Source: Candidatus Woesearchaeota archaeon | Lineage (GTDB): Archaea > Nanobdellota > Nanobdellia > Pacearchaeales > GW2011-AR1 | Length of the DNA stretch: 64,000 nt | Assembly: GCA_964547875.1 (NCBI GenBank) | Contig: CAZJPE010000001.1 | Span: 38,535 to 102,534, forward strand | Direction of reading: 5' to 3' | Shown: piece by piece, positions 42,294-64,000 of the stretch | Layout: every line of letters begins with the position of its first letter | Numbering within the stretch: position 1 is the first letter of the stretch | Notes under the pieces: model-generated | What the model saw: the letters and a program-made list of their open reading frames with translations, nothing else | Databases searched by the model: none | Told to the model about the DNA's origin: nothing | Position numbers and translations under genes: made by a program

Positions 42294-44183
42294 ATGACAG
42301 ACAAAAAAGATTATTCTGCAGAGAAGATTCAAGTATTAGAGGGGCTTGAAGCAGTTCGCAAACGTCCTGCTATGTATATAGGCAGCACTGGCAAGAGTGG
42401 ATTGCATCACCTAGTTTACGAAGTTGTTGATAATTCTGTTGACGAGGCAATGGTTGGATATTGTACAGAGATTGAAGTTATCTTGAATAAAGACGGAAGC
42501 GTGACTGTTATTGATAATGGTAGAGGCATTCCAGTTGATGTACATCCCATTTATAAAAGGCCTGCTTTAGAAATTGTCGTGACTAAATTACATGCTGGCG
42601 GGAAGTTTGACAAAGGAGTATATAGTGTATCAGGAGGCTTGCATGGAGTTGGAATAAGCGTAGTTGCTGCTTTATCCAAGCACATGGAAGTTATTGTAAA
42701 AAGAGGGGGCAAGAAATACAAGCAAGAATATAAAATCGGAAAGCCATTATATGACGTAAAAGTTGTTGGAGAGTCTTCAAAAGACGAGAGAGGGACAGAG
42801 GTTAGTTTTCTTCCTGATGATAGCATTTTTTCTGTTAGCAAATTTGATTTTTCTGTCTTAGAGACAAGATTTAGAGAGATTGCCTTTTTGAATAAAGGAT
42901 TGAAAATAATTTTGAAGGATGAAGCAACTGAAAAAAAAGAGGTATTTTGCTATGAAGGAGGCATTGTAGAATTTGTCAAATGGCTTAACAAGTCAAAGGA
43001 GTCTTTGCATAAAGCTATTTATTATTTAAAAGAAGACAGCGGAGTTATAGTTGAGTGCACTGTTCAGTACAATTCTGGCTATCAAGAGAATGTTTTGGGA
43101 TTTGTAAACACAATTAACACAGTAGAGGGGGGAACTCATATTATTGGCTTTAAGACTGCTTTGACAAGAGCGATTAATGATTATGCAAATAAGAATAAAT
43201 TGCTTAAGGATGGAAATTTAACTGGAGATGATGTCCGCGAGGGATTGACTGCTATTATTTCTACTAAAGTTCCAGAGCCGCAATTTGAGGGGCAGACAAA
43301 GACTAAATTAGGGAATAGCGAAATTAAAGGAATTGTTGATAAGATAAGCATGGCGGCTTTATCTGAATTTTTTGAGGAAAATCCTCCTATTGCAAGAAGG
43401 ATTGTTAATAAAGCATTAGAGGCGCAGAAAGCAAGAGATGCTGCGAAAAAAGCTAAAGAGCTAGTTAGGAGAAAGAGCGCATTTGGAGGGGGAGGTTTGC
43501 CTGGCAAATTAGCTGATTGCTCTGATAAAAAAGCTGAGAATACAGAATTATTTATTGTTGAGGGAGATAGCGCAGGAGGTTCGGGGAAACAGGCAAGAAA
43601 TAAAGAAAATCAAGCTATACTGCCTTTGAAAGGAAAGATATTAAATGTGGAGAAAGCAAACGCTGTGAAAGTATTGAGCAATGAAGAAATTTCTTCATTG
43701 ATTACTGCAATCGGGACAAGCATGGGCGAGCAGTTTGACATAACAAAATTAAGATATTCAAAAATAATTATTATGACTGATGCTGATGTTGACGGGGCGC
43801 ATATTAGGACTTTGTTGTTGACTTTTTTCTACAGATTTGTGCCTGACTTGGTTAAGAATGGAAATATCTACATTGCTGTCTCGCCTTTGTATAGAGTGAG
43901 AAAGAGAGGAGACCATTATATTTATTCTGACGAAGAGCTTAAGGAGATTAAGCAGAAGCTAGGGCATAATATTGACGTGCAGAGGTTTAAGGGACTTGGT
44001 GAGATGAATCCCCAGCAATTATGGGAGACAACTATGAATCCCAGAACAAGATTGCTGAAAAAAGTAACTGTTGAAGACGCTGCGCTGGCAGACGAGGTAT
44101 TTTCAAGATTAATGGGCGATGATGTTGAAGCGCGCAGGCAGTTTATTGCTTCTCGCGCGCATGAAGCAGAGGTGGATATTTGA
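42294..44183 (+). CDS. gyrB: DNA gyrase subunit B
   Basis: GLHHLVYEVVDNSVDEA (GHKL ATPase), EGDSAGG, PLKGKILNVEKA, KGLGEM (TOPRIM); 629 aa. Confidence 0.9.
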   Translation: MTDKKDYSAEKIQVLEGLEAVRKRPAMYIGSTGKSGLHHLVYEVVDNSVDEAMVGYCTEIEVILNKDGSVTVIDNGRGIPVDVHPIYKRPALEIVVTKLHAGGKFDKGVYSVSGGLHGVGISVVAALSKHMEVIVKRGGKKYKQEYKIGKPLYDVKVVGESSKDERGTEVSFLPDDSIFSVSKFDFSVLETRFREIAFLNKGLKIILKDEATEKKEVFCYEGGIVEFVKWLNKSKESLHKAIYYLKEDSGVIVECTVQYNSGYQENVLGFVNTINTVEGGTHIIGFKTALTRAINDYANKNKLLKDGNLTGDDVREGLTAIISTKVPEPQFEGQTKTKLGNSEIKGIVDKISMAALSEFFEENPPIARRIVNKALEAQKARDAAKKAKELVRRKSAFGGGGLPGKLADCSDKKAENTELFIVEGDSAGGSGKQARNKENQAILPLKGKILNVEKANAVKVLSNEEISSLITAIGTSMGEQFDITKLRYSKIIIMTDADVDGAHIRTLLLTFFYRFVPDLVKNGNIYIAVSPLYRVRKRGDHYIYSDEELKEIKQKLGHNIDVQRFKGLGEMNPQQLWETTMNPRTRLLKKVTVEDAALADEVFSRLMGDDVEARRQFIASRAHEAEVDI

Positions 44184-47700: not shown

Positions 47701-48464
47701 CGCATGACGCTCCTGCTGCAGAAAGACAGGGTAAAGGAAGAAGCATTGCAAACTTACTGAATTTAAGAGAGGAGGCAATTGCCAATGTTATGGCTATTAC
47801 TAACTTTGAATCTGGGTATTTAATGTTTGCTACAAAATTAGGAATTGTGAAGAGGCTGCCTTTAAAGGATGTTTCTAATCCCAGAAGCACGGGAGTTAGA
47901 ATAATGAATCTGCCTGCTGACGGGAGTGACGAGATAATTAATGTCAGCAGAGTAGAGGATGGGCAGGAAGTATTGATTATCACAAAGAAAGGACAGGCTA
48001 TTAGATTTAATTCCAATGATGTTAGGGCTATGGGTAGAGCGAGTTATGGAGTCAAAGGAATTGATTTAGCAAAGAATGATTTAGTTGTTTCTTTAATGGC
48101 TGTTCCTAAAGATGGAAAGACAACTGTTCTAACACTAACGGAAAAGGGATTTGGGAAGAGGTCTGATATTGTGGAATATAGAAAAACTGCGAGAGCTGGA
48201 AAGGGCGTTATTAATTTAAAGACAAATGACAAGACAGGAAGCGTTATTGCATCTGTAGCTGTGAATGACAAAGATTCTGTTATTATTACTACAACAAAAG
48301 GCAATATTATAAGAATTCCAATGAAGGACTTGAGGGTTATGGGGCGAGCAACTCAGGGAGTGAGAGCTGTAAAGCTCAAGGAAGGAGATAAGGTTGCCGA
48401 TGTTGTTCGAGTCCCTGTAATGATTGAAGACTCTCGTTTTGCTGATATGTTTAGTAATCTTTAA
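44751..48464 (+). CDS. gyrA: DNA gyrase subunit A interrupted by an in-frame intein (extein ~843 aa)
   Basis: [23 protein letters not shown], catalytic Tyr in [32 protein letters not shown]-terminal beta-pinwheel repeats. A 394-aa insertion sits between GQGNFG and SLDGDS. Confidence 0.9.
45150..46331 (+). mobile_element. Intein (394 aa) with HNH-type homing endonuclease inside gyrA
   Basis: Starts with Cys ([13 protein letters not shown], block A); block [13 protein letters not shown]-like [24 protein letters not shown]; blocks [24 protein letters not shown] followed by Ser+1. Confidence 0.85.
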
Positions 48465-50732: not shown

Positions 50733-51024
50733 ATGTTTTAAGCATAATAAAAATAAGGAGTAAAAATATAAGATAGCAGATATTATGCGTGGATGGGATA
50801 AGAAATTTAATTCTAAGAAGTAACTTCAATTTTATAGCAAAAGACTAAAATAATTTATCGGTTTGTCTTTTGCTACATCAAGAATAAAATTCTTGAGGCC
50901 ATCAAGAACAGAGTTCTTGAGGTATTCGAGAGAACAAAAAGCTTGGTTAATTATTTTGGTCTCTCTTTATAATCAAAAATTTTTATTAATAAGATTTAAA
51001 AACGCATTTACTTTTTATTTTCGT

Positions 51025-51096
51025 GCTCCAATAGTTTAGTGGCTAGAACATGCGCCTGTCACGCGCAAGGCCCGAGTTCGATTCTCGGTTGGGGCG
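51025..51096 (+). tRNA. tRNA-Asp (anticodon GTC), 72 nt, no encoded CCA
   Basis: Acceptor GCTCCAA/TTGGGGC (one G-U pair), D-arm GTTT-AGTGGCTA-GAAC, anticodon arm TGCGC-CTGTCAC-GCGCA, 4-nt variable, T-arm CCGAG-TTCGATT-CTCGG, discriminator G. Confidence 0.85.
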
Positions 51097-51131
51097 TAAT
51101 CCACCAGAACGGTTATTTGAAAGATTATTAT

Positions 51132-53532: not shown

Positions 53533-54606
53533 CTATATTTCATTTTTCTCGCGCATATAATCTATTCCTTCCCTTAAACTTACATTTATTCCATCATTTT
53601 CAAATAAACCACGAATTATTTTACCATCATGTCTAAAATGGCTGTTATCATGGGCAATATCTCCAGAATTTTCATTAAAAGAGTAATATAATAATAAGCT
53701 TTCATCATGTATATTTCCAAGCGGACTATTATCTGTATATCTCCCAGTAGTAAATAGAGAAGAAACTTCTGCATCATTTAATGAGGCGTTATAAATTCTG
53801 AATTCGTCTAAACTGCCTGGAACAGTTTGTTCTGTTTCAGTGTTCCAATCCCCAATTTTACCAGGATTAATAGCTCCCACAGCCAAGAAATTTTCAAAAT
53901 CATGAAAGTCATAAAATTCCATTCTTCTGTTTTTTCTTATAACAGCGCTATCAATTGGCTGTTTTTTACCATCTATATATATTGCAAGATAGCCCAAATT
54001 TGGTTTTGCGGTAAGAACAATGTGGTGCCATTCTCCATCTGAAATATTAATATGGCCATGCGTAGCGCCCCTTAATTCACTTCCAAATTCATCTCTTAGA
54101 TTAAAAGCAATATAATTTGTTGTCTGTCCAGTATAATCAATATGCGCGCTCACATTATCGTTTAAATATGCAGAGAACATAGTATCCGTGTCATCACCAT
54201 TTTGTGTTCCAAACGGAGTCCAAACTTCTGTTGTATTTGTCGAATTAACCCAAAAAGAAACAGTAATATTTGTAGATTCTAAATTACTTCCTAAACCTTC
54301 TATAAGTCCTGCATTAATATGCGTCTTAAAATCTCCATCAAGAAATATCCATGTTTGATTTTTCGCAATCAATTCAAAACCGCCCTCATAGAATTTAGTA
54401 AGATTATTTATTATTGCCTCTTTATAAAGAATTTTTTCTCCGTTTTCTTTAATAAAATAGATTTTAATTTTATTTATATCTTTTTCATTTTCGCCATTTT
54501 CTGAAACAGAAAAACCAGTGATTTTACTTTTTAAAAAGAGAATAATAAACCCTACTAATATTAAAATCATTAGGATTATTGTAATTAAATAGAATCTTTT
54601 ATTCAT
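53533..54606 (-). CDS. Signal-anchored LamG/ConA-like domain protein, last gene downstream of the toxin array
   Basis: N-terminal TM; HGHINISDGEWHHIVLTAKPNLGYLAIYIDGKKQ...GSLDEFRIYNASLNDAEVSSLF LamG pattern. Confidence 0.6.
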   Translation of the reverse strand: MNKRFYLITIILMILILVGFIILFLKSKITGFSVSENGENEKDINKIKIYFIKENGEKILYKEAIINNLTKFYEGGFELIAKNQTWIFLDGDFKTHINAGLIEGLGSNLESTNITVSFWVNSTNTTEVWTPFGTQNGDDTDTMFSAYLNDNVSAHIDYTGQTTNYIAFNLRDEFGSELRGATHGHINISDGEWHHIVLTAKPNLGYLAIYIDGKKQPIDSAVIRKNRRMEFYDFHDFENFLAVGAINPGKIGDWNTETEQTVPGSLDEFRIYNASLNDAEVSSLFTTGRYTDNSPLGNIHDESLLLYYSFNENSGDIAHDNSHFRHDGKIIRGLFENDGINVSLREGIDYMREKNEI

Positions 54607-54808
54607 TTTCCAAATAAATTATTTAGATTTATATATTCTTTGTCTTTTTCACAGATATTATATTCTAATGTTTATAGCAATTATATTAAGATTTTCATAA
54701 TCTAAAGAATATTTTTAAGTAGAGTTCGTCATTATAATTATCTTCTAATAAAAGAGGTGTTTAGATAAATTCATTATCTTTTTGATTTATTAGGGTTTGC
54801 ATTTTGAA

Positions 54809-55366
54809 TTAATCAATAATTAAAAAGTAAAAAATTATAGAAAGTAATATAAAAATAATTAATGGAATAATTATATAATATTTTAGCCTTGTTTTAGACA
54901 ATTTAATTAAATAAGCTCCTAAGAAAATTAAGAACAGGGGAGATAGTAAGGGCATCAAAAAGATTTGAGAATAATATAATATTCCTAATATTCCAGATAA
55001 AGGACGAAGAATGATTGGCTCAAAATAAATAATTGAGAAAAGAAAAAGAATAATAACTCCAGAAATTAGCGAAGTGATTCCCATGTGTTTTAATGATTTT
55101 TCTTCTCTTTCTTCAAATTTTATATTAGCTTTAAATTTAATAAATAAGAAAAATGTTATTATAGGTATGCTAGTTATTAGTAAATTCAAAAAATACCATT
55201 CAAATCCGCCCTCATGAGAGATTGAATTGATCCAAATAAAAAAATGTAGCATTCCAAATACTATACTCGTTATTAATAAAATCCAATATCTTATTCTAGG
55301 TAATTTTCTCTTTGGCTTAGCCATCTTAGTGCTTAGATTATTTTTATTTTTATCTCCATTTATCAT
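54809..55366 (-). CDS. Multi-TM membrane protein, candidate immunity protein for toxin 55369-56343
   Basis: 185 aa, 5-6 hydrophobic helices; starts 3 nt after the toxin stop. Confidence 0.5.
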   Translation of the reverse strand: MINGDKNKNNLSTKMAKPKRKLPRIRYWILLITSIVFGMLHFFIWINSISHEGGFEWYFLNLLITSIPIITFFLFIKFKANIKFEEREEKSLKHMGITSLISGVIILFLFSIIYFEPIILRPLSGILGILYYSQIFLMPLLSPLFLIFLGAYLIKLSKTRLKYYIIIPLIIFILLSIIFYFLIID

Positions 55367-55368
55367 CT

Positions 55369-56343
55369 TTATTTCCTACCTTCATAGGCATATATGACTC
55401 CGTCTGGCCCGGGATCTTCAGTTTTACTATAAGGTTTAGAAAACCAAGAACTAATCTGTTCTAAATATGAGTTTTTTGATAAAGAATCTATTGGTTTTGC
55501 TTCGCTATTTTCACTACTGGATTTTTCAAGCTCATCTCCAATATATTCAATTATATTGTTTTTCGTTGTTTTAATATTTTCACGTTTGAAATCAAAAATT
55601 AAATGTTTTATATGCTCCTTCTTTGTTGTTCCCCAATCAGGTCCTCCTTGATGTATTGTATCTCCAAAAACATGCAAATATCTTCCTGCTCCGTTGTCTC
55701 CTCTTCGATATGCTTGAACAAATTTCTGTGCATTTTGCCGGAGTATATTTTCCATATTTTCATTACTAATATCAGAAGCAAGGTGAAAGAATCTATGATT
55801 TTCAGTTTCGGTGTACGAGCGCAAAGGAGGAATGTCTGGTGTAATGGAATCCCATGCTAGTTTAAGCGACTCAATTCTTCCAAATCCCAGTTCTCTACTA
55901 GCGCCATATGTCCCTATAAAATGTATGTCAACTGTTGATTTTCCTGTCGGGTCTGTATATCTATACGGATTATTAAGCACATAAGAATAACAATTCAATG
56001 CCTGAGGATTATAAATATCTGGCTTGATTGTATCACATTGTGTAAACAACTTGATAAATGAACTATAATACCTCGCACCTAAATAATCTAAATCAACTAA
56101 CTTATCTCTCTCCTTGCCAGCAAACAAAAATCTACTTAATTCCAATCCAGAATAAATCTCTCCAAACGGCAAATAAAACTCTTCCTCAACAACATCTCCT
56201 GTCTGATTTGTAACTAATGTTGTGCTGCCTAAATGGTCATCATGATAAAATGTCTTTGCGCCTGAATTGTCTTTCTTCGCAATTAATTTATCATTCGCAT
56301 AATAATATGTTTCATTGAGGATAGTTCCGCTCATTATTTTCAT
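55369..56343 (-). CDS. Orphan RHS-tip toxin module (starts directly at the conserved tip, no N-terminal domain) with a C-terminal toxin domain of unknown activity
   Basis: MKIMS-GTILNETYYYANDKLIAKKDNSGAKTFYHDDHLGSTTLVTNQTGDVVEEEFYLPFGE...DLDYLGARYY...ALNCYSYVLNNPYRYTDPTGK is the RHS repeat-associated core ending; tail KPYSKTEDPGPDGVIYAYEGRK. Confidence 0.7.
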   Translation of the reverse strand: MKIMSGTILNETYYYANDKLIAKKDNSGAKTFYHDDHLGSTTLVTNQTGDVVEEEFYLPFGEIYSGLELSRFLFAGKERDKLVDLDYLGARYYSSFIKLFTQCDTIKPDIYNPQALNCYSYVLNNPYRYTDPTGKSTVDIHFIGTYGASRELGFGRIESLKLAWDSITPDIPPLRSYTETENHRFFHLASDISNENMENILRQNAQKFVQAYRRGDNGAGRYLHVFGDTIHQGGPDWGTTKKEHIKHLIFDFKRENIKTTKNNIIEYIGDELEKSSSENSEAKPIDSLSKNSYLEQISSWFSKPYSKTEDPGPDGVIYAYEGRK

Positions 56344-56352
56344 TTTAGGGTT

Positions 56353-56709
56353 TTATTTTTCATCAACTAATTTTTCTTTCTCTAATATTTCTTTTAATTC
56401 CTTCTTTAATATTGGAATATCTTCATTAATTGTCTTCCAAATTATCCCAATATCAACACCAAAATAATGATGTATCATTTTATCCCTCATCCCTACTATT
56501 TTCTTCCATTCAATATTTTTATATTTATCAATAAATTCCGATGTTAGATTTTTAGCTGCTTCGCCTATTACTTCTATTCTCCTTATAGTAGCGTCCAATA
56601 TATCTCTATTATTCTCAAAATCTCTCTTTGAAAGATTCTTTATAGATTTTTCAATAAGGGTTATATTATCAAGTATATGACTAATAAATACTAAAGGATT
56701 CTTTCTCAT
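56353..56709 (-). CDS. HepT-like (DUF86) toxin of a HepT/MNT module
   Basis: RDKMIHHY gives the Rx4HxY catalytic motif; 118 aa. Confidence 0.8.
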   Translation of the reverse strand: MRKNPLVFISHILDNITLIEKSIKNLSKRDFENNRDILDATIRRIEVIGEAAKNLTSEFIDKYKNIEWKKIVGMRDKMIHHYFGVDIGIIWKTINEDIPILKKELKEILEKEKLVDEK

Positions 56710-56987
56710 ATTATCCTAATTTCCTCTTTAAGTATAGATTTCCTTAATAATGGATTTATTCCTTTATAAGTAAGCAAATCTACTTTTTTCTTTAGTTTTC
56801 TATTTAGTTCCATTTCTAATTCTATCAAACTCAATAAGCCTCCATTGAATTCTATTAAAATATCAATATCGCTATTTTTTTTAGCCTCGCCCCTTGCATA
56901 ACTGCCAAAAATTCCTGCCTTAGGTATATGATATTTTTTTAAGGTGCCTTTAATTTTTGATTTTATCTTGCTTATTTCATTTACCAT
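56706..56987 (-). CDS. MNT minimal nucleotidyltransferase antitoxin
   Basis: GIFGSYARGEAKKNSDIDILIEF = GSxxRG...DxD nucleotidyltransferase motif; 4-nt overlap with HepT. Confidence 0.8.
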   Translation of the reverse strand: MVNEISKIKSKIKGTLKKYHIPKAGIFGSYARGEAKKNSDIDILIEFNGGLLSLIELEMELNRKLKKKVDLLTYKGINPLLRKSILKEEIRII

Positions 56988-57074
56988 ATTATCCTATGAA
57001 ATTGATATTTTTTATATCTTTGGGATTTCCCATCAGGTTGTATAAACCTAAATAAAGTAGAAGGCTCATAATAT

Positions 57075-57554
57075 CTAATTTCCAGAATTATCTTTCTTTG
57101 CAACTAATTTACCATTTGCGTAATAATAAGTTTCATTTAATATTGTTCCATTGCTGTAACGAACTTGAATGAAATTGTCACTTATCTTATTTCTAAAATC
57201 AACAAATTCATCATAGATTATGTTTCTAAATCCAAAATCATAATTTTCATTATGAAATATAAAATGCAAAGAAATTCCTTGATTTAACCAATAGATATTT
57301 TGTTCTTCGTCATAAATGTAACCACTATCAAAATTTTTATCAGAATTATTTAATCCATAAATTGAGAATGTCAAACATTCTCCTAAAATATTATTTGTTA
57401 AATTATTTGAATGACAGATTATAGTGGATTGTGAATAGAAGTCTATTGTGTCGTTCCTTTCAGAGTTCTCTATGTTGTTTTGGGCAAGTGAGAGATTTAA
57501 TAATATGAGAATTAGGAAAATTGCTAAAATTATTTTTGGTAGATTAATATTCAT
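57075..57554 (-). pseudogene. Truncated toxin gene: Sec signal peptide plus N-terminal domain, ending 20 residues into the RHS-tip motif
   Basis: MNINLPKIILAIFLILILLNLSLA signal; ends ISDNFIQVRYSNGTILNETYYYANGKLVAKKDNSGN then stop, i.e. the same tip segment other array members continue through. Confidence 0.55.
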
Positions 57555-57559
57555 TTTTA

Positions 57560-57823
57560 TTATATAATCATTAAAATTATTATTGCTATAATGATGAGAG
57601 ATATGCCTATTCCTGTAGCAGAATTTTTACTTGTTGGTGCGCCCCTAATCCATGCTTTTTTAGTTTTTATAGATTTTACGCCTCCATGTAAAAGCCATAC
57701 GCCAAATAATATTAAGATAATACTATATAAATTAACTTCTTTAAAAGAATAAGATTTTATGAATCCAATTATAAAATATATTAAGTCATATAACCAAATA
57801 AAATTACTTTTCTTTTTCACCAA
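57560..57823 (-). CDS. Small 2-TM membrane protein, candidate immunity for toxin 57827-59182 (non-ATG start)
   Basis: 87 aa; two TM helices; no ATG available near the start (TTG/GTG); starts 3 nt after the toxin stop. Confidence 0.45.
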   Translation of the reverse strand: MVKKKSNFIWLYDLIYFIIGFIKSYSFKEVNLYSIILILFGVWLLHGGVKSIKTKKAWIRGAPTSKNSATGIGISLIIIAIIILMII

Positions 57824-57826
57824 TTT

Positions 57827-59182
57827 TTATATACAGGACATTATAACCCCACATCCTCCTCTGTTGTTATTACTTCTTGACTGTTCTTTATTAGATTTTG
57901 AAGATATTGCATTATTTAAATTTCTTCCGCCTCTATTCGATTGTGAGTTAGAGTTTGTTTGTTTATTGGAAGAATCTACCGTTCCTTTAAATATAGATTC
58001 TCCAAATTCAGAATATCCAGATTGTGCTGTTTGAGATATCGCTTCGCTAAATGTAGCTTTTCCTAATTGTGAGGATGGATAAAATTGGCCAGGCGTTCTT
58101 CTTATTATGCCAGGAAGAGAACTTTGCGAGATTCTTGATGAAATTACAGAATTAAAAACGGCGGATGTTAAAATATCTCTGCCTGAAATCTCATTATACC
58201 CTCTTCCTTCCACTAAAGTCTCTTGAGCAAACTCTTGTCCAGCACCAATGCCTGCTAATGCTGTTGTTCTAATAGCAGTGCCAACACCTGCTGTTGCAAT
58301 ACTTCTAAGCCCACCACTAGCTATAGCCGCTACTGTTGTTCCAGGAGAAATTAGTATACTTGCAGCAGTCGCTCCACCAGCAATCGTTCCAGATAACACA
58401 GCTTTGCCTATATCCCCAGTTTGCTGATAAGTAATATAACCTTGGATGCCTCCTATGACTATTGCGGGCACAGCAACAACCAAGACAGGAATGTTTCCTG
58501 TCTCATCCGTATACTTATACGGATTATTCAAAACATAAGAATAACAATTCAATGCCTGTGGATTATAAATATCTGGCTTTATTGTATCACATTGAATAAA
58601 TAGACTAGCAAATGGATTATAATACCTTGCGCCCAAATAATCTAAATCAACTAACTTATCCCTTTCCTTGCCTGCAAACAAGAATCTGTTTAGTCCAAGA
58701 CCTGAAAATATCTTTCCGAACGGCTCATAGAAATTCTCTTCTACAATATTGCCAGATTGATTTGTTACTAATGTAGTGCTACCTAAATGATCTCCATGAT
58801 AATAATTCTTACTTCCAGAATTGTCTTTCTTAGCAACAAGTTTATCATTGGCATAGTAATAAGTTTCATTTAATATAGTTCCATTAGAATATCTAATTTG
58901 AATAAAATTATCAGAGATATAATAAGTAGTTGCGTTAATGCCTGTGCTATAATCATAATCTGCCTTCTTAACCCTATTTCCTTCTGCATCATAAGCATAT
59001 TGCTCTATTAATCTTCCATTTGTTGAGTTAGTTATTTTTGTTAATTGGTTAAATCCATCATAAGTATAGTTTTTATCAAATCCTGAAATGAGATTGCCAT
59101 TTGGGTCATAAGGAAAAGGAGTCCAGATAATTTCTCCTTCCTCAATATAATTATCTTCTTTCTGTATTGTTATGAGTTTCAT
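57827..59182 (-). CDS. YD-repeat/RHS-tip polymorphic toxin with glycine-zipper (membrane-active) C-terminal domain
   Basis: N-terminal MKLITIQKEDNYIEEGEIIWTPFP; YD repeats YTYDGFNQL / YAYDAEGNRV; RHS tip ...YYHGDHLGSTTLVTNQSG...DLDYLGARYY...NNPYKYTDETGN; then IPVLVVAVPAIVIGGIQG...TIAGGATAASILISPGTTVAAIASGG; tail RGGCGVIMSCI. Confidence 0.75.
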   Translation of the reverse strand: MKLITIQKEDNYIEEGEIIWTPFPYDPNGNLISGFDKNYTYDGFNQLTKITNSTNGRLIEQYAYDAEGNRVKKADYDYSTGINATTYYISDNFIQIRYSNGTILNETYYYANDKLVAKKDNSGSKNYYHGDHLGSTTLVTNQSGNIVEENFYEPFGKIFSGLGLNRFLFAGKERDKLVDLDYLGARYYNPFASLFIQCDTIKPDIYNPQALNCYSYVLNNPYKYTDETGNIPVLVVAVPAIVIGGIQGYITYQQTGDIGKAVLSGTIAGGATAASILISPGTTVAAIASGGLRSIATAGVGTAIRTTALAGIGAGQEFAQETLVEGRGYNEISGRDILTSAVFNSVISSRISQSSLPGIIRRTPGQFYPSSQLGKATFSEAISQTAQSGYSEFGESIFKGTVDSSNKQTNSNSQSNRGGRNLNNAISSKSNKEQSRSNNNRGGCGVIMSCI

Positions 59183-59691
59183 TTCTTAATATTTTTATAT
59201 TTCTTAAATAACCCTCCTACTATTAATACAACAAATATGTATTGTAAGGGATAAATTATTAAAAACGATAGAATCCCAAAAAAATCAACCAAATCTGTAT
59301 AGGAACTTGGATCATAGGGTATAGTTGATTTATTAGCCAAATAAAAGCCAATATTGTTGGCTATTTCGGCTGTTATTCCTATTGGAATCAACATAAATAC
59401 CAACACACTTAAAAATATAAAATGAAAATTATACTTTATAGGTTTCAAATAAGGTATTAAAGTTATTAGATTATGTAATAAATAAAGAGGAATTAAAACT
59501 AAAATAAAGCTTCCTAATATTATCTCTTCTAAACCACTAGAACCAAGAACAGAGAGATATATTTCACTATATTGAAATAGGTAATTTGTAATAAACCAAA
59601 CTATTGCCGTTGATAAAATGATAGAGAAAGAAAGATAAACTATCAATTTCAGCTGATTTCCTATAATATCTTTTATGTTATTTTTTTTCAT
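59179..59691 (-). CDS. Multi-TM membrane protein, candidate immunity for toxin 59693-61051
   Basis: ATG 1 nt after the toxin stop (the track extends to GTG 59700); 4-5 TM helices. Confidence 0.5.
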   Translation of the reverse strand: MKKNNIKDIIGNQLKLIVYLSFSIILSTAIVWFITNYLFQYSEIYLSVLGSSGLEEIILGSFILVLIPLYLLHNLITLIPYLKPIKYNFHFIFLSVLVFMLIPIGITAEIANNIGFYLANKSTIPYDPSSYTDLVDFFGILSFLIIYPLQYIFVVLIVGGLFKKYKNIKK

Positions 59692-59692
59692 C

Positions 59693-61051
59693 TTATGCAC
59701 AACTCATGATTTTGCCACATCCTTTATTTCTACTACCTTCAGATTTATCTTTATTATATGGTTTTTCAACTATTCTTTTATCATAGTTATATGTTTTATC
59801 TATTCCTGGAGAAATTGCCCAAGGAGATAGATCTCCCTTAGGAAAACTACTGCCTGCATTTTCTGTAGCAGTTCTTGCGAAAACATTTGAATTAGATCTA
59901 CTGCTACCTACTTTAGGGTTGAGAACATACGGCACCTTCGCTTCATTCAATTTGTTTCCTTCTGCTATAATATCATTAATAAATTCTGTATCTGTCTTTC
60001 CTTCTGGCGTATTCAATAATACATTGCTATATTCTTTAGTTCCTCCTGTTTTCTCCACATTCTTTCCAAATTGCAAAATACTATTAGGATTAAAAATTCC
60101 ATCTGAAGCATATGCCCCTAAATTGAAGTTGGTTTCTCCTCTAAAGTCTTCCGGATTATCAGGTATAACATTAAAGTAAGAATGAGTAGTATGACTTGTA
60201 ACAAAATTAGAGACCACTCTAAGAAAAAGAATATCACTATTTGCATATTGATTATTTATACTTCTTGTAACTAAATAAACCTCCTTGCCATTTGGGTCTA
60301 TGTATTTATAAGGATTGTTAAGCACATAGGCATAATGATTTAGATTTTGTGGGTTGAATATATTAGCTATCATAGAATCAGGAGAAATAAACATCCTCAT
60401 AATTGAAGCCTGATAATACCTTGCTCCATAATAATAAATATCAACTAATTTATCAAACTCTTGAGCCGTGAATAAATATCTTGAACTTTCACTTCCACTA
60501 TACACATCACCAAACGGCAAATAAAACTCTTCTTCTGTAATATTTCCTGTTTGATTAGTTACTAATGTAATAGAACCCAAGTGGTCAGAATGATAATATG
60601 TCTTTGCACCGCTATTATCTTTCTTTACAATTAATTTATCATTTGCATAGTAATATGTTTCATTTAATATTGTTCCGTTTGTATAGCGGATTTGAATGAA
60701 ATTGTCGCTAATGTAATAGGTTGTTTGATTATTTCCTGTTGTGTAATCATATTCTACTTTCTTTATTCTGTTGCCATCAGCATCATACCTATATTCTGCT
60801 ATAACATTTCCTGTGGCATTCTTCTTTCTAACTGAAGATAATTGATTGAATGGATCATACTCGTAATATTTGCCAAGTCCTTTTATTAAATTTCCATTTG
60901 CGTCATAAGTCATATCTGTGTTATAAGTTAAGAGATTTTCGTAATCTAAGGCGTATTCTAGATAGAGTTCTTCTTCGCTATTATATTTATTTTCTGATAA
61001 AAACGGCGTCCAGATTAGTATGTTATTTTTTGGGTTTGTTAGGATTTGCAT
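59693..61051 (-). CDS. YD-repeat/RHS-tip polymorphic toxin, C-terminal toxin domain of unknown activity
   Basis: N-terminal MQILTNPKNNILIWTPFL; YD repeats MTYDANGNL / YEYDPFNQL / YRYDADGNRI; RHS tip to NNPYKYIDPNGK; ~200-aa unique C-terminal domain; tail EKPYNKDKSEGSRNKGCGKIMSCA. Confidence 0.75.
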   Translation of the reverse strand: MQILTNPKNNILIWTPFLSENKYNSEEELYLEYALDYENLLTYNTDMTYDANGNLIKGLGKYYEYDPFNQLSSVRKKNATGNVIAEYRYDADGNRIKKVEYDYTTGNNQTTYYISDNFIQIRYTNGTILNETYYYANDKLIVKKDNSGAKTYYHSDHLGSITLVTNQTGNITEEEFYLPFGDVYSGSESSRYLFTAQEFDKLVDIYYYGARYYQASIMRMFISPDSMIANIFNPQNLNHYAYVLNNPYKYIDPNGKEVYLVTRSINNQYANSDILFLRVVSNFVTSHTTHSYFNVIPDNPEDFRGETNFNLGAYASDGIFNPNSILQFGKNVEKTGGTKEYSNVLLNTPEGKTDTEFINDIIAEGNKLNEAKVPYVLNPKVGSSRSNSNVFARTATENAGSSFPKGDLSPWAISPGIDKTYNYDKRIVEKPYNKDKSEGSRNKGCGKIMSCA

Positions 61052-61052
61052 T

Positions 61053-61304
61053 TTAAATAAAAGTCAGATATATTCCTAAAATGATTAAAATAATACCTAT
61101 ACAAATGCCTAATGGAGCAAAAAACTTTCTTATAATATTTGCCGCTTTATCTTCGCCAAAAATTTTTCTCCAAATAAAAGCTTTTGGGCTTTTCTTGACA
61201 TAATTCTCTAGAAACTTTTTATCTTTAATGGCTTTTGTCGCATAATAAAAGTTTATTACACCAGCTAATAAAATTAATAAAGAATAAGTGTTAAATTTAA
61301 TCAT
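61053..61304 (-). CDS. Small 2-TM membrane protein (extra/orphan immunity-like gene)
   Basis: 83 aa; sits between the barstar-like gene and the next toxin. Confidence 0.4.
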   Translation of the reverse strand: MIKFNTYSLLILLAGVINFYYATKAIKDKKFLENYVKKSPKAFIWRKIFGEDKAANIIRKFFAPLGICIGIILIILGIYLTFI

Positions 61305-61348
61305 ATTTATATTAGTTTTATTAAGTTTAAAAGTTTTTGTTTTTATTC

Positions 61349-61642
61349 TTATTTCTCAATCTTAAATTTTACATGATATTTATGATTTCTTATTATTTCA
61401 AGTATATTTTTTAAGAATTCTTCAGGCAATTCTTTTTTTGATTTATCAAAGTTTCTCCAAACTAAAATTATCTTTTCTTTGAACTCAAATTGGTATCCTC
61501 CATATAGGATATCGTCAAAAGCATCATAGTTTCTACCAAAACCTTTAAAATCATTAGTCAGCACACTTACTATCTCGTCATAAAATCCTTTTATATCATG
61601 AAAATTTTCTCCATCTATAATAAAAGTCTTTATTTTCTTCAT
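61349..61642 (-). CDS. Barstar-like RNase inhibitor (immunity protein)
   Basis: IIDGENFHDIKGFYDEIVSVL...FGRNYDAFDDIL...IILVWRNFDKSKKELPEEFLKNILEII is colinear with barstar ([21 protein letters not shown]...YGENLDALWDCL...LVLEWRQFEQSKQ). Confidence 0.8.
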   Translation of the reverse strand: MKKIKTFIIDGENFHDIKGFYDEIVSVLTNDFKGFGRNYDAFDDILYGGYQFEFKEKIILVWRNFDKSKKELPEEFLKNILEIIRNHKYHVKFKIEK

Positions 61643-62688
61643 TTCTTTTTAGAACCTCCAAAAACATTTTTAATCTTATCTACGATTTTAGTAAATGAAC
61701 TCTTTTCGTAATGCTTATCAGTATAATATGTTTCTCCGCCCTTACCAGTTATAACTCTTTCTGGATTTTTTCTACTAGTTACATCATGAGTTGTATAATA
61801 ACCTAGTTCTTGTTTTGGAAGTGCGCCCTCTACATTCTTAAATTCATGGGGTCTTAGCCCATCAGTCTTTCCACTTTGTATTTTATTAATTGTATCTTGG
61901 ACACTTTGAGGCAAATCGGATAACTTGGTTTCCTTTAATTTATCCGCGACATTTTCTGCGCCCTTCAAAGCATCTCCCACCTTCTCCCCGGTCTTAGCCA
62001 AATCAGCCACATCACTAACTCTATCAATTCCTTTAGCAACTCTAAATCCTGCCCCTAATCCAGTTACAAAAGGCAAGGCTGCTCCTGCAACATCTAAACC
62101 AAGAGCAACATAATTGGCAGAATTGTCAGGATCTTGAATAATGCTATAAATATCATATCCGATAAATCCTACATCGGCAACAGTTTCTATATAATGCCCA
62201 GTACCATCTTTGTATTTGTAGGGATTGTTTCTTGCATAATTATAACAGTTTAATTGTTGAGGATCGTAAATATCTGGCTTAATTGTATCACACTGTATAA
62301 ACAACCTCATAATAGAAGCTTGATAATACCTCGCCCCATAATAATACAAGTCAACAAGCTTATCAAACTCTTGAGCTGTGTATAAAAACCTAGATAATCC
62401 AGCTCCAGATAGTATATCGCCAAAAGGACCATAAAAGTTTTCTTCAACAATATGCCCACTCTGATTAGTAACTAAACTCGTACTACCTAAATGGTCTCCA
62501 TGATAAAATGTTTTTGCTCCTGAATTATCCTTTTTAGCAACTAATTTATCATTGGCGTAATAATATGTTTCGTTGAGAATTGTTCCGTTAGTGTTCTCAT
62601 CATTTAAAATATATTCCATATAAAATTCTTCTTGTGGCATTTGTGTCCAGATGAACTCGTTATCTTTTTCTATAATAATAGTTATCAT
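61639..62688 (-). CDS. RHS-tip polymorphic toxin with C-terminal barnase/RNase Sa-T1 family ribonuclease domain
   Basis: N-terminal MITIIIEKDNEFIWTQMP; RHS tip; C-terminal LPQSVQDTINKIQSG...FKNVEGALPKQELGYYTTHDV...ERVITGKGGETYYTDKHYEKSSFTKI aligns with RNase Sa (FQNRESVLPTQSYGYYHEYTV...RRIICGEATQEDYYTGDHYATFSLI). Confidence 0.8.
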   Translation of the reverse strand: MITIIIEKDNEFIWTQMPQEEFYMEYILNDENTNGTILNETYYYANDKLVAKKDNSGAKTFYHGDHLGSTSLVTNQSGHIVEENFYGPFGDILSGAGLSRFLYTAQEFDKLVDLYYYGARYYQASIMRLFIQCDTIKPDIYDPQQLNCYNYARNNPYKYKDGTGHYIETVADVGFIGYDIYSIIQDPDNSANYVALGLDVAGAALPFVTGLGAGFRVAKGIDRVSDVADLAKTGEKVGDALKGAENVADKLKETKLSDLPQSVQDTINKIQSGKTDGLRPHEFKNVEGALPKQELGYYTTHDVTSRKNPERVITGKGGETYYTDKHYEKSSFTKIVDKIKNVFGGSKKK

Positions 62689-63074
62689 TTTTTATCTACA
62701 TTTCTTAATTTTCTCATTAATTTAACAATTCCAAGACCTAAATAAAATCCAATTAATAAACCTGCTATTTTAATAACTAAAAAATCTCCCCAATAATATT
62801 TTAATAATTGCCAAGATATGATGGCTAGTAATATAGAAAATAACAATTCTCTTTCGTTAAGTGAGTTTTTGTTCATTTTAAAAAAGCCCCTTCCTTCTTT
62901 GGAATAGATTATCGATGTTACTAAAAATCCAAAGAATATACCGAGTATCATAATAATTGATCCAAAAATTATAATAAAGACTGGGCTACGCTTGCCTATG
63001 ATAGAGGCACCAATCGCAAGAATCAAAAAAGCAATCCCATACATTATTATTGTAACTATTTTTTCTTTATCCAT
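62685..63074 (-). CDS. 3-4 TM membrane protein, candidate immunity for toxin 63077-64000+
   Basis: The ATG (MDKEKIV...) lies 2 nt after the toxin stop; its end overlaps the next toxin start (ATGA). Confidence 0.5.
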   Translation of the reverse strand: MDKEKIVTIIMYGIAFLILAIGASIIGKRSPVFIIIFGSIIMILGIFFGFLVTSIIYSKEGRGFFKMNKNSLNERELLFSILLAIISWQLLKYYWGDFLVIKIAGLLIGFYLGLGIVKLMRKLRNVDKK

Positions 63075-63076
63075 TT

Positions 63077-64000
63077 TTATGCACAACTCATAACTTTATT
63101 GCAACCTCCATCTTGATTTTTTTCTGCTAAATTACTGCCTTTATTTATAGGTTTACTTCCATATCCATAAATTACACCATCAGGACCAGGATCTTGAGTC
63201 CTACTGAATGGTTTATTGAAGTTATATTCATTATAATAATCTTGTAACGTATTTTCTTTTATAAGTTTTGTGTTATCTAATTTCTCTTTTTCAAAATCTT
63301 CATCAGGTTCTCTATCTAATTCTCCAAAATCAAAAATAGGATATCCTTTACTCCACTGATAAGCTACTCCAACTTTTGCCAATATATTTGGATCATTAAG
63401 TCCCTGTGTAATAGGGTCGCCTTTTATAAAATTAGTAGTTATTTGGGTTGTTACAGTTTCTGTTATGATGGGGGCACCAACAGTTGCTATTGATGAACCT
63501 CCTGAAAGAATACCTGCTACAACAGTAGCTCCTGCAACTCCTCCTCCAGCCAAACCTGCGACAGCGGAATCTGTAATGTCCACCCAAGTAGCTTGCGGAT
63601 TATTTGCTGTATTAATGGCTCCTATAATCGCTCCAATGACAGCTCCCCCAACAACTATACTCGCCACAGTAATTGTTATCGGGTCTATTAAATTTCCACT
63701 CTCATCAGTATATTTGTAGGGATTATTCAAGACATAACTATAACAATTCAATGCCTGAGGATTATAAATATCTGGCTTAATTGTATCGCATTGAGTGAAT
63801 AATCTCATAATTGACGCTTGATAGTAACGAGCGCCATAATAATACAAATCAATAGCCTTGTCCAATTCCTTAGCTGTATAGAGGAATCTGCTTAATTCAG
63901 GCCCTATAAAGATATCTCCGAATGGACCATAGAAATTCTCTTCTGTTATATTCCCTGTCTGATTTGTCACAAGCGTTGTTGAACCAAGATGATCTGGATG
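63077..64000 (-). CDS. RHS-tip polymorphic toxin with glycine-zipper C-terminal domain (5' part outside window)
   Basis: Frame open to the window edge (…HPDHLGSTTLVTNQTGN…); RHS tip to NNPYKYTDESGN; ITITVASIVVGGAVIGAIIGAI...VAGLAGGGVAGATVVAGILSGG; tail KPFSRTQDPGPDGVIYGYGSK...GGCNKVMSCA. Confidence 0.7.
   Translation of the reverse strand, partial: HPDHLGSTTLVTNQTGNITEENFYGPFGDIFIGPELSRFLYTAKELDKAIDLYYYGARYYQASIMRLFTQCDTIKPDIYNPQALNCYSYVLNNPYKYTDESGNLIDPITITVASIVVGGAVIGAIIGAINTANNPQATWVDITDSAVAGLAGGGVAGATVVAGILSGGSSIATVGAPIITETVTTQITTNFIKGDPITQGLNDPNILAKVGVAYQWSKGYPIFDFGELDREPDEDFEKEKLDNTKLIKENTLQDYYNEYNFNKPFSRTQDPGPDGVIYGYGSKPINKGSNLAEKNQDGGCNKVMSCA

What the first reader, a model, noticed from the sequence alone, without database searches (positions are those of the whole stretch)
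54809..64000. Tightly coupled array of five or more short YD-repeat/RHS-tip polymorphic toxin genes, each with its own immunity gene, in a DPANN-like archaeon
On the minus strand the order is: toxin(63077+), membrane immunity, barnase-type toxin, barstar-like immunity, an 83-aa membrane protein, toxin, membrane immunity, glycine-zipper toxin, membrane immunity, a truncated signal-peptide fragment, MNT, HepT, an orphan tip toxin, membrane immunity. Every toxin carries the RHS repeat-associated core ending (YYHxDHLGS...PFGE...GARYY...NxYxYVxNNPYxYxDPxG), but the genes are only 324-452 aa with 0-3 YD repeats. That is far too short to build the RHS shell of bacterial or eukaryotic Rhs/teneurin proteins. 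Adjacent genes overlap by 4 nt (ATGA) or sit 1-3 nt apart, so the array looks like one translationally coupled polycistron rather than a main gene followed by displaced orphans. The C-terminal domains differ in every copy, and the tip is conserved at protein level but only ~80% at DNA level. This points to long-term diversifying maintenance of a contact-dependent or secreted toxin arsenal in an organism with no known T6SS/T5SS/CDI machinery. A mini-RHS toxin family with its own delivery determinants (see the N- and C-terminal motif findings below) would be new.
Basis: partly seen in the sequence, partly recalled or inferred. Interest (0 to 1): 0.9.

Follow-up and report, generated by a model that had tools for sequence, protein, structure and literature searches.

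The report
Split RHS toxin cocoon with swappable tips
The short toxin genes are real, but each is only the small closing piece of a toxin capsule whose large shell gene lies just past the window edge, so this is a two-gene variant of a known toxin class in a tiny archaeon, not a shell-less new toxin.

Summary
The gene array exists as described. All five toxin ORFs carry a significant RHS core (TIGR03696, E 1e-14 to 1e-17). A barnase/barstar pair and an MNT/HepT pair are confirmed. The candidate immunity genes encode membrane proteins.

The window cuts the locus. On the 290-kb source contig, the first "toxin" is the C-terminus of a 1122-aa signal-peptide protein. Directly upstream lies a 1520-aa TcB-like protein (signal peptide, SpvB-like N-terminus, FG-GAP propeller, TcdB_toxin_midN, YD repeats) with no RHS core.

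Single-polypeptide relatives in bacteria and some archaea are colinear with this large protein followed directly by a tip. In two of them the gap at the join is under 10 residues. The short genes are therefore the small half of a split TcdB/TcaC-type RHS cocoon.

About 20 of 21 loci with signal-peptide tips encode a separate TcB-like gene within 10 kb, or a fused one in two loci.

The array mixes several states:
- three intact tips without a signal peptide, sharing a lineage-specific N-terminus;
- one truncated orphan;
- one decayed gene;
- one dead cassette stub.

The copies are old: synonymous divergence (dS) is at least 1 and dN/dS is 0.1-0.2.

Verdict: a new variant of a known kind, of moderate interest. 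Assembly of the two halves into one cocoon is inferred, not shown.

The parts
63077..64000 (-). The 3' end (last 308 codons) of the 1122-aa main tip gene. The full protein has a signal peptide or anchor, a LamG domain and Ig-like domains, 3 YD repeats, the RHS core, a Gly-rich hydrophobic C-terminal domain and a Cys tail. The gene continues to window-equivalent 66445.
   Evidence: contig locus L001 4607-7975. TIGR03696 E 9e-15 and E 3e-14 on the full protein. Laminin_G_3 E 5e-24.
62685..63074 (-). 129-aa membrane protein, the candidate immunity gene for the main tip. It lies 2 nt after the main gene and overlaps the next gene by 4 nt.
   Evidence: Three predicted membrane helices.
61639..62688 (-). 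349-aa tip without a signal peptide. It has the N-terminal MITIIIEKDNEFIWTQMP motif, one YD strand, the RHS core and a barnase-type RNase.
   Evidence: TIGR03696 E 1.5e-14. PF00545 E 5e-11. Motif.
61349..61642 (-). Barstar-type immunity protein (97 aa).
   Evidence: PF01337 E 8e-14.
61053..61304 (-). 83-aa small membrane protein of unknown role, possibly an orphan immunity gene.
   Evidence: One C-terminal membrane helix.
59693..61051 (-). 452-aa tip without a signal peptide. It has the MQILTNPKNNILIWTPF N-terminus, 3 YD repeats, the RHS core, a rare unassigned C-terminal domain and the Cys tail GCGKIMSCA.
   Evidence: TIGR03696 E 7e-17 and RHS_repeat E 1.6e-5. The C-terminal domain has one homolog among 5.8 billion proteins and no PDB match.
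59179..59691 (-). 170-aa membrane protein, the candidate immunity gene.
   Evidence: Four predicted membrane helices.
57827..59182 (-). 451-aa tip without a signal peptide. It has an N-terminus ending in IIWTPFP, 3 YD repeats, the RHS core, a Gly/Ala-rich hydrophobic C-terminal domain and the Cys tail GCGVIMSCI.
   Evidence: TIGR03696 E 2e-15. In the AF2 model, residues 20-215 are confident and form a beta sheet plus plug. Foldseek matches them to Rhs, teneurin and TcC shells.
57560..57823 (-). 87-aa membrane protein with a TTG start, the candidate immunity gene. A homolog follows the closest relative of the 451-aa tip in locus L004.
   Evidence: L004 11602-11895, also starting MVKKKS. Two membrane helices.
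57032..57554 (-). Decayed tip gene of the signal-peptide class. It keeps the signal peptide, a Cys-containing N-domain and the last YD strand, then a stop codon. A frame-shifted core remnant (RYYEPSTLFRFIQPD) follows.
   Evidence: Its N-terminal class is shared with P0006, P0010, P0050, P0063 and P0082. 75% DNA identity to L002 10709-11090.
56353..56987 (-). MNT (56706-56987) and HepT (56353-56709) toxin-antitoxin pair, sitting where the rest of the decayed gene should be. A similar pair lies at the distal end of the related array in L004.
   Evidence: PF01909/PF18765 E about 1e-17 and PF01934 E 4e-27. L004 15813-16464.
55369..56343 (-). 324-aa 5'-truncated orphan tip. It starts inside the last YD strand, has no signal peptide and no IWTP motif, and carries the RHS core and an unassigned C-terminal domain ending in DPGPDGVIYAYEGRK.
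   Evidence: TIGR03696 E 2.4e-15. No PDB or Pfam identity for the C-terminal domain.
54809..55366 (-). 185-aa membrane protein, the candidate immunity gene for the orphan.
   Evidence: Six predicted membrane helices.
54700..54802 (-). Dead stub of one more cassette without a signal peptide (MQTLINQKDNEFI*). The conserved Trp codon TGG has become TAA. The stub marks the distal end of the array.
   Evidence: L001 16250 onward, 78-83% identical to the cassette starts in L002 and L004.

Best explanation
The region is the distal two-thirds of a polymorphic-toxin locus of the known TcdB/TcaC (SpvB-propeller-RHS) class, carried by a DPANN-type archaeon. In this locus the cocoon gene is split in two.

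Shown:
- A 1520-aa exported large subunit lies just outside the window. It has a signal peptide, a SpvB-like N-terminus, an FG-GAP propeller, a TcdB_toxin_midN domain and about 600 aa of YD repeats, and it has no RHS core.
- Tip genes follow it. Each supplies only the last three YD repeats, the aspartyl-protease plug (the RHS core) and a variable toxin domain. Each is followed by its own immunity gene.
- Single-chain relatives are colinear with the large subunit followed directly by a tip. The break lies between the motif '..HAPxRI' and the first 'YxYDxNGN'. One fused relative carries a ~95-aa insert at the same point.
- In most relatives the tip has its own Sec-type signal peptide, placed so that the mature N-terminus starts at the break point.

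Inferred:
- After Sec export, a tip docks edge-to-edge onto the open end of the large subunit.
- The plug closes the cocoon around the toxin domain.
- The two conserved aspartates cut the toxin free.
- The propeller end mediates release or target contact, as in TcB-TcC.
- One shell gene can therefore be armed with several ~1.3-kb cartridges, which is an economical design for a ~1-Mb genome.

States within this array:
- The first tip (1122 aa, with a signal peptide) is the one clearly equipped for export.
- The 349-, 452- and 451-aa genes are intact and under purifying selection, but they have no signal peptide. They share a lineage-specific N-terminus (MQTLTxQKxNEFIWTPxP). How or whether they reach the shell is unknown.
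- The 324-aa gene is a truncated orphan.
- The 159-aa ORF and the stub are remnants.

The immunity genes (barstar and small membrane proteins) protect the producer and probably also act against neighbours' toxins.
For: - **Locus structure.** On the source contig, a 1520-aa protein (FG-GAP_3, TcdB_toxin_midN E 8e-23, RHS_repeat E 8e-20, DUF6443) overlaps by 4 nt a 1122-aa protein, whose C-terminus is the window's first toxin.
- **Division of the core.** TIGR03696 is absent from three large subunits and present in the three genes that follow them.
- **Colinearity with fused relatives.** The large subunit, residues 1-1512, aligns to residues 7-1464 of a 1909-aa Scalindua protein, and the tip, residues 23-230, aligns to residues 1474-1672 of the same protein. 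In the 2516-aa Methanolapillus protein the large-subunit match ends at 2111 and the tips start at 2115-2118.
- **Tip is a shell fragment.** It aligns only to the last ~200 residues of solved shells. The AF2 model is confident for residues 20-215 and matches ~210 residues of Rhs, teneurin and TcC structures at rmsd 3.3-4.5 A, covering 8-26% of the target.
- **Catalytic residues.** D199 and D226, the Asp of the two DPxG-like motifs, are invariant in 32 family members. This matches the motif description in PMC8636562.
- **Linkage.** A TcB-like gene is adjacent in every locus fetched through protein hits (L001, L002, L004, L006, L007, L008). Overall, about 20 of 21 loci with signal-peptide tips have one within 10 kb. 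In two of these (L032, L047) it is a fused full-length gene.
- **Family regularity.** 47 of 99 scorable homologs have a signal-peptide-like N-terminus with the core starting at a median of residue 132. Their median length is 436 aa.
- **Age and selection.** dS is at least 1 or saturated, and dN/dS is 0.09-0.23.
Against: - No direct evidence shows that the two proteins bind. Complex prediction was not possible with the tools at hand.
- Both halves carry signal peptides, so assembly and toxin encapsulation would have to happen outside the cell. This has not been shown for any RHS system. For Tc toxins, I recall that the B and C subunits need co-expression in one cell (own knowledge, not checked here).
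- Three of the four short genes in this window have no signal peptide, so they could not meet an exported shell as encoded.
- The 349- and 324-aa genes lack the three YD repeats and would leave a gap in the sheet.
- In two loci (L032, L047) a signal-peptide tip sits next to a fused, already closed main gene. There, tips may act alone or may be leftovers.
- No TcA-like translocator was found in the window or the fetched loci.
- Signal peptides were judged by a hydrophobicity rule and by eye, not by a trained predictor.
Confidence: 0.68

Rival explanations
1. Self-sufficient mini-RHS toxins. The ~430-aa proteins are secreted and act alone. The three YD repeats plus the plug serve only as a self-cleaving carrier, and the neighbouring TcB-like protein is a separate adhesin or toxin.
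For: - Most family members have their own signal peptide and a very regular length.
- In L032 and L047 a signal-peptide tip lies beside a complete fused gene that would not need it.
- One locus (L010) shows no TcB-like gene in the 12 kb available.
Against: - The tips are exactly colinear with the end of fused proteins, with no overlap and gaps under 10 residues.
- The partner genes lack precisely the part the tips supply.
- The two gene types are linked in about 20 of 21 loci.
- The tip model is an open sheet fragment, not a closed domain.
Confidence: 0.17
2. Classical main gene plus silent orphans. Only the 1122-aa gene makes a working toxin. The downstream short genes are reserve cassettes, kept mainly because their immunity genes are useful. 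They become active only when recombination in the shared YD/core region joins them to the main gene's 5' part.
For: - There is a main gene with a signal peptide followed by copies without one.
- The 324-aa gene starts mid-repeat. The 159-aa ORF and the stub are decayed.
- Homologs with many different truncation points exist elsewhere.
- This layout is well known for bacterial Rhs loci (PMC3150448, listed; details from own knowledge).
Against: - The three intact short genes share a dedicated N-terminal peptide and start codon. This peptide is conserved across three contigs, is always N-terminal, and is never found inside main genes.
- The copies share only 62-79% DNA identity, with exact runs of 11-39 nt, which is poor substrate for homologous recombination.
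- dN/dS of 0.1-0.2 shows long selection on the protein, although that selection could have acted in earlier hosts.
Confidence: 0.35
3. The split is decay or an assembly error. On this reading the ancestral fused gene was broken by a nonsense or frameshift change, and the locus is no longer functional.
For: Some parts of the array are clearly decayed.
Against: - The same split, with a signal peptide on the downstream gene, recurs in independent assemblies and lineages: Nanoarchaeota, Pacearchaeota, Woesearchaeota, Methanosarcinales, one Patescibacteria MAG and one Nitrospirae MAG.
- All the large ORFs are intact.
Confidence: 0.03

Closest known systems
TcdB/TcaC-type RHS polymorphic toxins (Zhang et al. 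2012, PMC3482391). One polypeptide carries a signal peptide, SpvB domain, integrin-like beta-propeller, RHS repeats and a C-terminal toxin, followed by immunity genes and cassettes. Reported in many bacteria and in Euryarchaeota (Methanosarcina).
   Same: The domain set and order are the same once the 1520-aa protein and a tip are joined. Both have an N-terminal signal peptide, variable C-terminal toxins (barnase here, colicin D and REase in relatives), downstream immunity genes and orphan cassettes.
   Different: Here the polypeptide is split just before the last three YD repeats. The small part usually has its own signal peptide and sometimes extra surface domains. The host is a DPANN archaeon.
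TcB-TcC cocoon of insecticidal Tc (ABC) toxins from Photorhabdus and Yersinia (PDB 4O9X, 4IGL, 6H6E).
   Same: Both are two-gene cocoons. The large subunit carries the SpvB-like N-terminus, FG-GAP propeller and TcdB mid domain. The second subunit carries the RHS core and a hypervariable toxin. Several alternative toxin-bearing genes can serve one large-subunit gene.
   Different: - 97% of bacterial TcC proteins are 851-1050 aa and supply about 650 aa of shell (PMC7861908). These tips supply about 200 aa.
- Both archaeal halves have signal peptides, whereas I recall Tc subunits assembling in the cytoplasm (own knowledge).
- No TcA partner was found.
- Immunity genes are present here. As far as I recall they are absent from insecticidal Tc loci (own knowledge).
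Enterobacterial Rhs main gene with displaced orphan rhs-CT/rhsI modules (Poole et al. 2011, PMC3150448; further details from own knowledge).
   Same: Both have a main gene followed by same-strand toxin-tip and immunity pairs that share the core-encoding region. Truncated orphans and decayed pieces lie at the distal end.
   Different: Three of the downstream genes are not 5'-truncated fragments. They have their own conserved start and N-terminal peptide. The copies are far more diverged than I recall for typical enterobacterial orphans. Delivery is not by T6SS.
Sec-exported RHS toxins of Gram-positive bacteria (WapA of Bacillus subtilis, and Streptococcus suis, PMC12704120).
   Same: Both use a signal peptide to export an RHS toxin, have a downstream immunity gene, and use no injection apparatus.
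   Different: As far as I recall, WapA is one long polypeptide with a full shell and a cell-wall-binding region (own knowledge). Here the protein is split and has TcB-like propeller domains.

Membership tests
RHS/YD-repeat polymorphic toxin | RHS repeat-associated core domain (TIGR03696) directly before the variable C-terminal domain | tested here: met
   53-62 bits against a cutoff of 32.5 in all five toxin ORFs.
RHS/YD-repeat polymorphic toxin | The two aspartates of the DPxG-type self-cleavage motifs are conserved | tested here: met
   D199 and D226 are invariant in the 32-sequence alignment. The motif definition comes from PMC8636562. Cleavage itself was not tested.
RHS/YD-repeat polymorphic toxin | A YD-repeat strip long enough to form a closed shell within the same polypeptide | tested here: not met
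   The tips have 0-3 YD repeats. They align to the last ~200 residues of shells with 840-1000-aa strips. The missing part is encoded by the separate 1520-aa gene.
RHS/YD-repeat polymorphic toxin | Variable C-terminal toxin followed by a cognate immunity gene | tested here: met
   The barnase/barstar pair is identified by HMM. The other C-terminal domains are all different and each is followed by a membrane-protein gene. Toxicity and neutralisation were not tested.
TcdB/TcaC-type polymorphic toxin (Zhang 2012) | Signal peptide, SpvB domain and integrin-like beta-propeller N-terminal to the RHS repeats | tested here: met
   The 1520-aa protein has an N-terminal hydrophobic segment, FG-GAP_3 at E 6e-15 and TcdB_toxin_midN at E 8e-23. 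PF03534 SpvB is on record for the homologs in L006 and L007.
TcdB/TcaC-type polymorphic toxin (Zhang 2012) | Delivery module and toxin on one polypeptide | tested here: not met
   There are two genes with a 4-nt overlap, and the second has its own signal peptide. Fused relatives exist in other genomes.
Tc (ABC) toxin complex | TcA translocator encoded with the TcB and TcC genes | tested here: not met
   No TcA-type domains appear in the window ORFs or in the genes flanking the locus. The rest of the genome was not searched.
Tc (ABC) toxin complex | TcC subunit of about 850-1050 aa contributing about 650 aa of shell | tested here: not met
   The shell-plus-plug part of a tip is about 200 aa. 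The size norm comes from PMC7861908.
Tc (ABC) toxin complex | The B and C subunits form one closed cocoon around the toxin domain | not testable with these tools
   This needs complex prediction or experiment. Only colinearity with fused relatives and gene linkage support it.
Rhs main/orphan array | Downstream copies are 5'-truncated pieces of the main gene's core region without their own N-terminal module | tested here: inconclusive
   Met for the 324-aa ORF, the 159-aa remnant and the stub. Not met for the 349-, 452- and 451-aa genes, which have a conserved N-terminus of their own that is absent from main genes.
Integron-like cassette array | Integrase next to an array of cassettes bounded by structured recombination sites | tested here: not met
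   A tyrosine-recombinase-like gene lies 1.8 kb upstream of the large subunit. However, the conserved 50-nt cassette start shows no obvious inverted repeat by eye, is confined to one lineage, and coincides with a coding N-terminus.

The most novel reading that the evidence does not exclude
DPANN archaea, and a few other small-genome lineages, use a cocoon that assembles from two separately made proteins. One exported TcB-like shell subunit is closed outside the cell by any of several small, separately exported cartridge subunits. Each cartridge brings three YD repeats, the self-cleaving plug and a different toxin. If true, this would be the smallest known cocoon-closing unit and the first case of an RHS shell loaded after export. 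The shared C-terminal Cys tail (GCGKIMSC) and the IWTP N-terminus could then be loading or exit signals.
Probability: 0.4. Interest if true: 0.75.

Novelty: new variant of a known kind. Interest (0 to 1): 0.55.

Why it matters
Little is known about how episymbiotic DPANN archaea attack or compete with other cells. A compact, modular RHS weapon would be a concrete candidate.

The split point also offers a natural experiment. It asks how an RHS cocoon is closed and how the toxin gets inside, because the closing piece is a separate ~200-residue module that could be mixed and matched in vitro. The same property could make it a minimal cargo adaptor for engineered Tc or Rhs capsules.

For genome annotation, hundreds of proteins named "RHS repeat-associated core domain-containing protein" of about 430 aa in archaeal MAGs are probably small subunits. 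They are neither fragments nor stand-alone toxins.

Tried and rejected
1. **Junction as a recombination target in the main gene.** I tested whether the conserved 50-nt start of the cassettes without a signal peptide is copied inside the main genes, which would let recombination graft a signal peptide onto them. Local alignments of seven junctions against three main genes scored at or below the level of shuffled controls. The IWTP motif never occurs internally. Rejected.

2. **Frameshift fusion with the upstream immunity gene.** In L002 and L004 the immunity ORF reads into the junction in another frame, giving the tail NANPNKPKRK. In the window the upstream genes stop before, or 4 nt into, the next gene, so no conserved fusion is possible. 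Not pursued.

3. **Integron-like cassettes.** See the membership test. Rejected.

4. **Spread of the junction.** An exact-pattern scan of metagenome contigs found only two contigs, both from Hainich groundwater samples, as is L003. The N-terminal class is therefore narrow.

5. **Identity of the C-terminal domains of the 452- and 324-aa tips.** Pfam, NCBIfam and PDB sequence searches gave nothing significant. A protein search found one homolog only. AF2 gave pLDDT below 50 for the 451-aa tip's C-terminal domain.

6. **MNT-HepT as a simple insertion with target duplication.** The flanking 69-nt segments are diverged, and the upstream gene carries an internal deletion. This is a replacement or decay event, not a clean insertion.

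7. **Literature gap.** The archaeal polymorphic-toxin survey by Makarova et al. 2019 (mBio; PMC6509191) is not held in the library. I could not check whether it already describes the split.

8. **Structure or complex prediction of the 1520-aa protein.** Not attempted. It exceeds the 1200-aa limit and lies outside the window.

Full report
**Observation.** The RHS repeat-associated core model TIGR03696 hits all five toxin ORFs at E 1e-14 to 1e-17, well above its cutoff. YD-repeat models hit the 452- and 451-aa proteins. The 349-aa protein ends in a barnase-type RNase (PF00545, E 5e-11), and the next ORF is a barstar (PF01337, E 8e-14). MNT and HepT are confirmed. The ORFs after each toxin have 1-6 predicted membrane helices. 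Gene spacing is tight, mostly a 4-nt overlap or 1-5 nt, with exceptions of 9, 44 and 87 nt.

**Host organism.** The window encodes an archaeal Kae1 (TIGR03722, 423 bits against a cutoff of 375). The nearest homologs of the toxins that carry names come from Nanoarchaeota, Pacearchaeota, Woesearchaeota and Micrarchaeota MAGs, followed by Methanosarcinales. G+C is 27-38%. "DPANN-like archaeon" is therefore reasonable.

**The window cuts the locus.** An exact look-up of the 452-aa protein found the source contig, ENA ERZ27284378 k139_317676, 290 kb long. I checked the mapping base for base. The "toxin 63077+" is the last 308 residues of a 1122-aa protein. That protein has an N-terminal hydrophobic signal or anchor, a LamG domain and Ig-like domains, then three YD repeats, the core and the toxin. 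A 1520-aa protein overlaps its start by 4 nt. The 1520-aa protein has a signal peptide, a SpvB-like N-terminus, an FG-GAP propeller, TcdB_toxin_midN (E 8e-23), DUF6443 and about 600 aa of YD repeats, but no TIGR03696 core. This is the domain set of TcB from Tc toxins. It also matches the "TcdB/TcaC" class of polymorphic toxins defined by Zhang et al. 2012, which that paper already reports in Euryarchaeota (PMC3482391).

**What the short proteins are.**
- The conserved part of a tip (residues ~23-230) aligns only to the last ~200 residues of solved Rhs, teneurin-like and TcC shells. Examples are 953-1151 of the 1152-residue 8H8A chain and 2049-2161 of the TcdB2-TccC3 fusion.
- An AF2 model built on 32 homologs is confident for residues 20-215 (pLDDT 72-97). 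It shows about 15 beta strands.
- Foldseek matches those residues to the same structures at rmsd 3.3-4.5 A, but they cover only 8-26% of each target.

**Colinearity with fused relatives.** This is the key comparison.
- A scan of one genome per species returned 79 loci. In most bacterial loci and some archaeal ones, the TcB-like part and the tip are one polypeptide of 1700-3400 aa.
- The 1520-aa protein (residues 1-1512) aligns to residues 7-1464 of a 1909-aa Scalindua protein. The tip (23-230) aligns to residues 1474-1672 of the same protein.
- In a 2516-aa Methanolapillus protein the large-subunit match ends at 2111, and tips start at 2115-2118.
- The break falls between '..HAPxRI' and the next 'YxYDxNGN'.
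- A 2045-aa archaeal protein carries a ~95-aa insert at exactly this point. This suggests a permissive, probably exposed, site (inference). It is the same site where the 1122-aa protein carries its LamG and Ig-like domains.
- The large protein and a tip therefore add up to one complete cocoon protein, with no overlap and almost no gap.

**Linkage between tips and large subunits.**
- All six loci reached through protein hits have a TcB-like gene next to the tip genes.
- Counting the genome-scan loci as well, about 20 of 21 loci with a signal-peptide-bearing tip encode a TcB-like gene within 10 kb. In two of these (L032, L047) the TcB-like part belongs to a fused full-length gene rather than a separate one.
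- The split form dominates in DPANN. It also occurs in some Methanosarcinales, one Patescibacteria MAG and one Nitrospirae MAG.
- Among the 120 best homologs, my regular expression found the core in 99. Of these, 47 have a signal-peptide-like N-terminus with the core at a median of residue 132 and a median length of 436 aa. After signal-peptide removal, the mature end would lie at the break point.

**Mechanism (inference).** The tip docks on the open end of the exported large subunit. The plug closes the barrel around the toxin. The two invariant aspartates (D199 and D226; motifs as described in PMC8636562) release the toxin. The propeller end handles exit or target contact, as in TcB-TcC.

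The weak points of this mechanism are:
- there is no binding evidence;
- assembly would have to occur after export;
- no TcA-like partner was found;
- two loci have a signal-peptide tip beside an already complete fused gene.

**The array itself is heterogeneous.**
- The 349-, 452- and 451-aa genes have no signal peptide. They share an N-terminus, MQTLTxQKxNEFIWTPxP.
- That N-terminus and its ~50-nt coding sequence recur at cassette starts in two other Nanoarchaeota-type contigs. It is always N-terminal and is absent from main genes. An exact-pattern scan found it in only two further metagenome contigs. So these three genes are not random fragments of the main gene. Their export route, if any, is unknown.
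- The 324-aa gene begins inside the last YD strand and is a classical truncated orphan.
- The 159-aa ORF is the 5' part of a signal-peptide-class tip. After its stop, a frame-shifted piece of the core (RYYEPSTLFRFIQPD) runs up to the MNT-HepT pair, which has replaced the rest of that gene.
- Just below the stated start of the finding, a further cassette start survives with its Trp codon mutated to a stop.

**Age of the copies.** Over the shared 128 codons, the five copies are 62-79% identical in DNA and 65-83% identical in protein. dS is at least 1 or saturated, dN/dS is 0.09-0.23, and the longest exact runs are 11-39 nt. The copies are old and were selected as proteins. This selection could have acted partly in earlier hosts, so it does not prove that the copies without a signal peptide are expressed here.

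**Comparison with known systems.**
- The locus works like a TcdB/TcaC-type RHS polymorphic toxin with immunity genes and orphan cassettes. It resembles TcB-TcC in being a two-gene cocoon.
- It fails the one-polypeptide criterion of the TcdB/TcaC class.
- It fails the TcA-partner and TcC-size criteria of Tc toxins. 97% of TcC proteins are 851-1050 aa (PMC7861908).
- I found no paper describing the split in DPANN. The most relevant survey (Makarova et al. 2019) could not be read, so prior description cannot be excluded.

**Verdict.** The "shell-less mini-RHS without delivery machinery" reading arose because the window edge cut the locus. What remains is a gene-fission variant of a known toxin class, with unusually small cartridge subunits, widespread in DPANN archaea. 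I rate it a new variant of a known kind, interest about 0.55. It would rise to about 0.75 if assembly of the two halves after export is shown.

Noticed in passing
window 51024-51097 (tRNA-Asp), and beyond the window end at window-equivalent 74104-74115 (L090 6890-6901): The last 12 nt of tRNA-Asp (TCGGTTGGGGCG) recur as a direct repeat about 90 nt upstream of a tyrosine-integrase-like gene (406 aa, L090 6987-8207). That gene lies 1.8 kb before the 1520-aa shell gene. The whole RHS system may therefore sit on a ~23-kb integrated island. Its G+C is 30-31% against 33% in the rest of the window. A 12-nt match alone is weak evidence.
   Followed up: partly
window 29957-31168 and 31216-32349 (+): Two tyrosyl-tRNA synthetase genes lie in tandem. 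One is bacterial-type with an S4 C-terminal domain (TIGR00234, 368 bits). The other is archaeal-type (NF006330, 433 bits).
   Followed up: no
C-termini of the toxins at window 63077-63110, 59693-59725 and 57827-57860 (-): Three unrelated toxin domains end in the same Cys tail, GC(G/N)(K/V)(I/V)MSC(A/I). Relatives end in CGCGCSMSCPKK, GCGFTMSCGSGCGSFMSCGH or GCGKIMSCSI. In several a DPGPDGV(I/A)Y.YG motif precedes the tail, and the 324-aa orphan keeps that motif without the Cys part. A shared peptide after the toxin domain is unusual for polymorphic toxins, and its role is unknown.
   Followed up: partly
L002 6530-6564, 8390-8423 and 12770-12803; L004 9995-10032: In related arrays the immunity ORF reads about 30 nt into the conserved cassette start in another frame. 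Unrelated immunity proteins therefore end in the same tail (NANPNKPKRK or similar). The DNA junction, not the protein tail, is what is conserved.
   Followed up: partly
window 61362-61396 (-) (L001 9656-9690) compared with L004 12069-12103: The last ~12 codons of the barstar gene (IIRNHKYHVKFK) are 91% identical in DNA to the 3' end of an unrelated 75-aa membrane-protein gene in L004. This looks like a second kind of shared cassette boundary.
   Followed up: no
window 44751-48464 (+): DNA gyrase subunit A is interrupted by an intein. The gyrB gene lies upstream at 42294-44183.
   Followed up: no
window 53533-54606 (-) and 79-1152 (+): Further LamG-domain (Laminin_G_3) proteins are encoded here. 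One lies directly after the array and has an N-terminal hydrophobic segment. The same domain sits in the 1122-aa main tip.
   Followed up: no
L012 (Patescibacteria MAG JBBTTO010000002.1) and L023 (Nitrospirae MAG JACRPZ010000064.1): The same split layout, with a ~430-aa signal-peptide tip and a separate TcB-like gene, appears in two bacterial MAGs. One is from the ultra-small CPR group. This hints at transfer between episymbiotic lineages, or at mis-binning.
   Followed up: no
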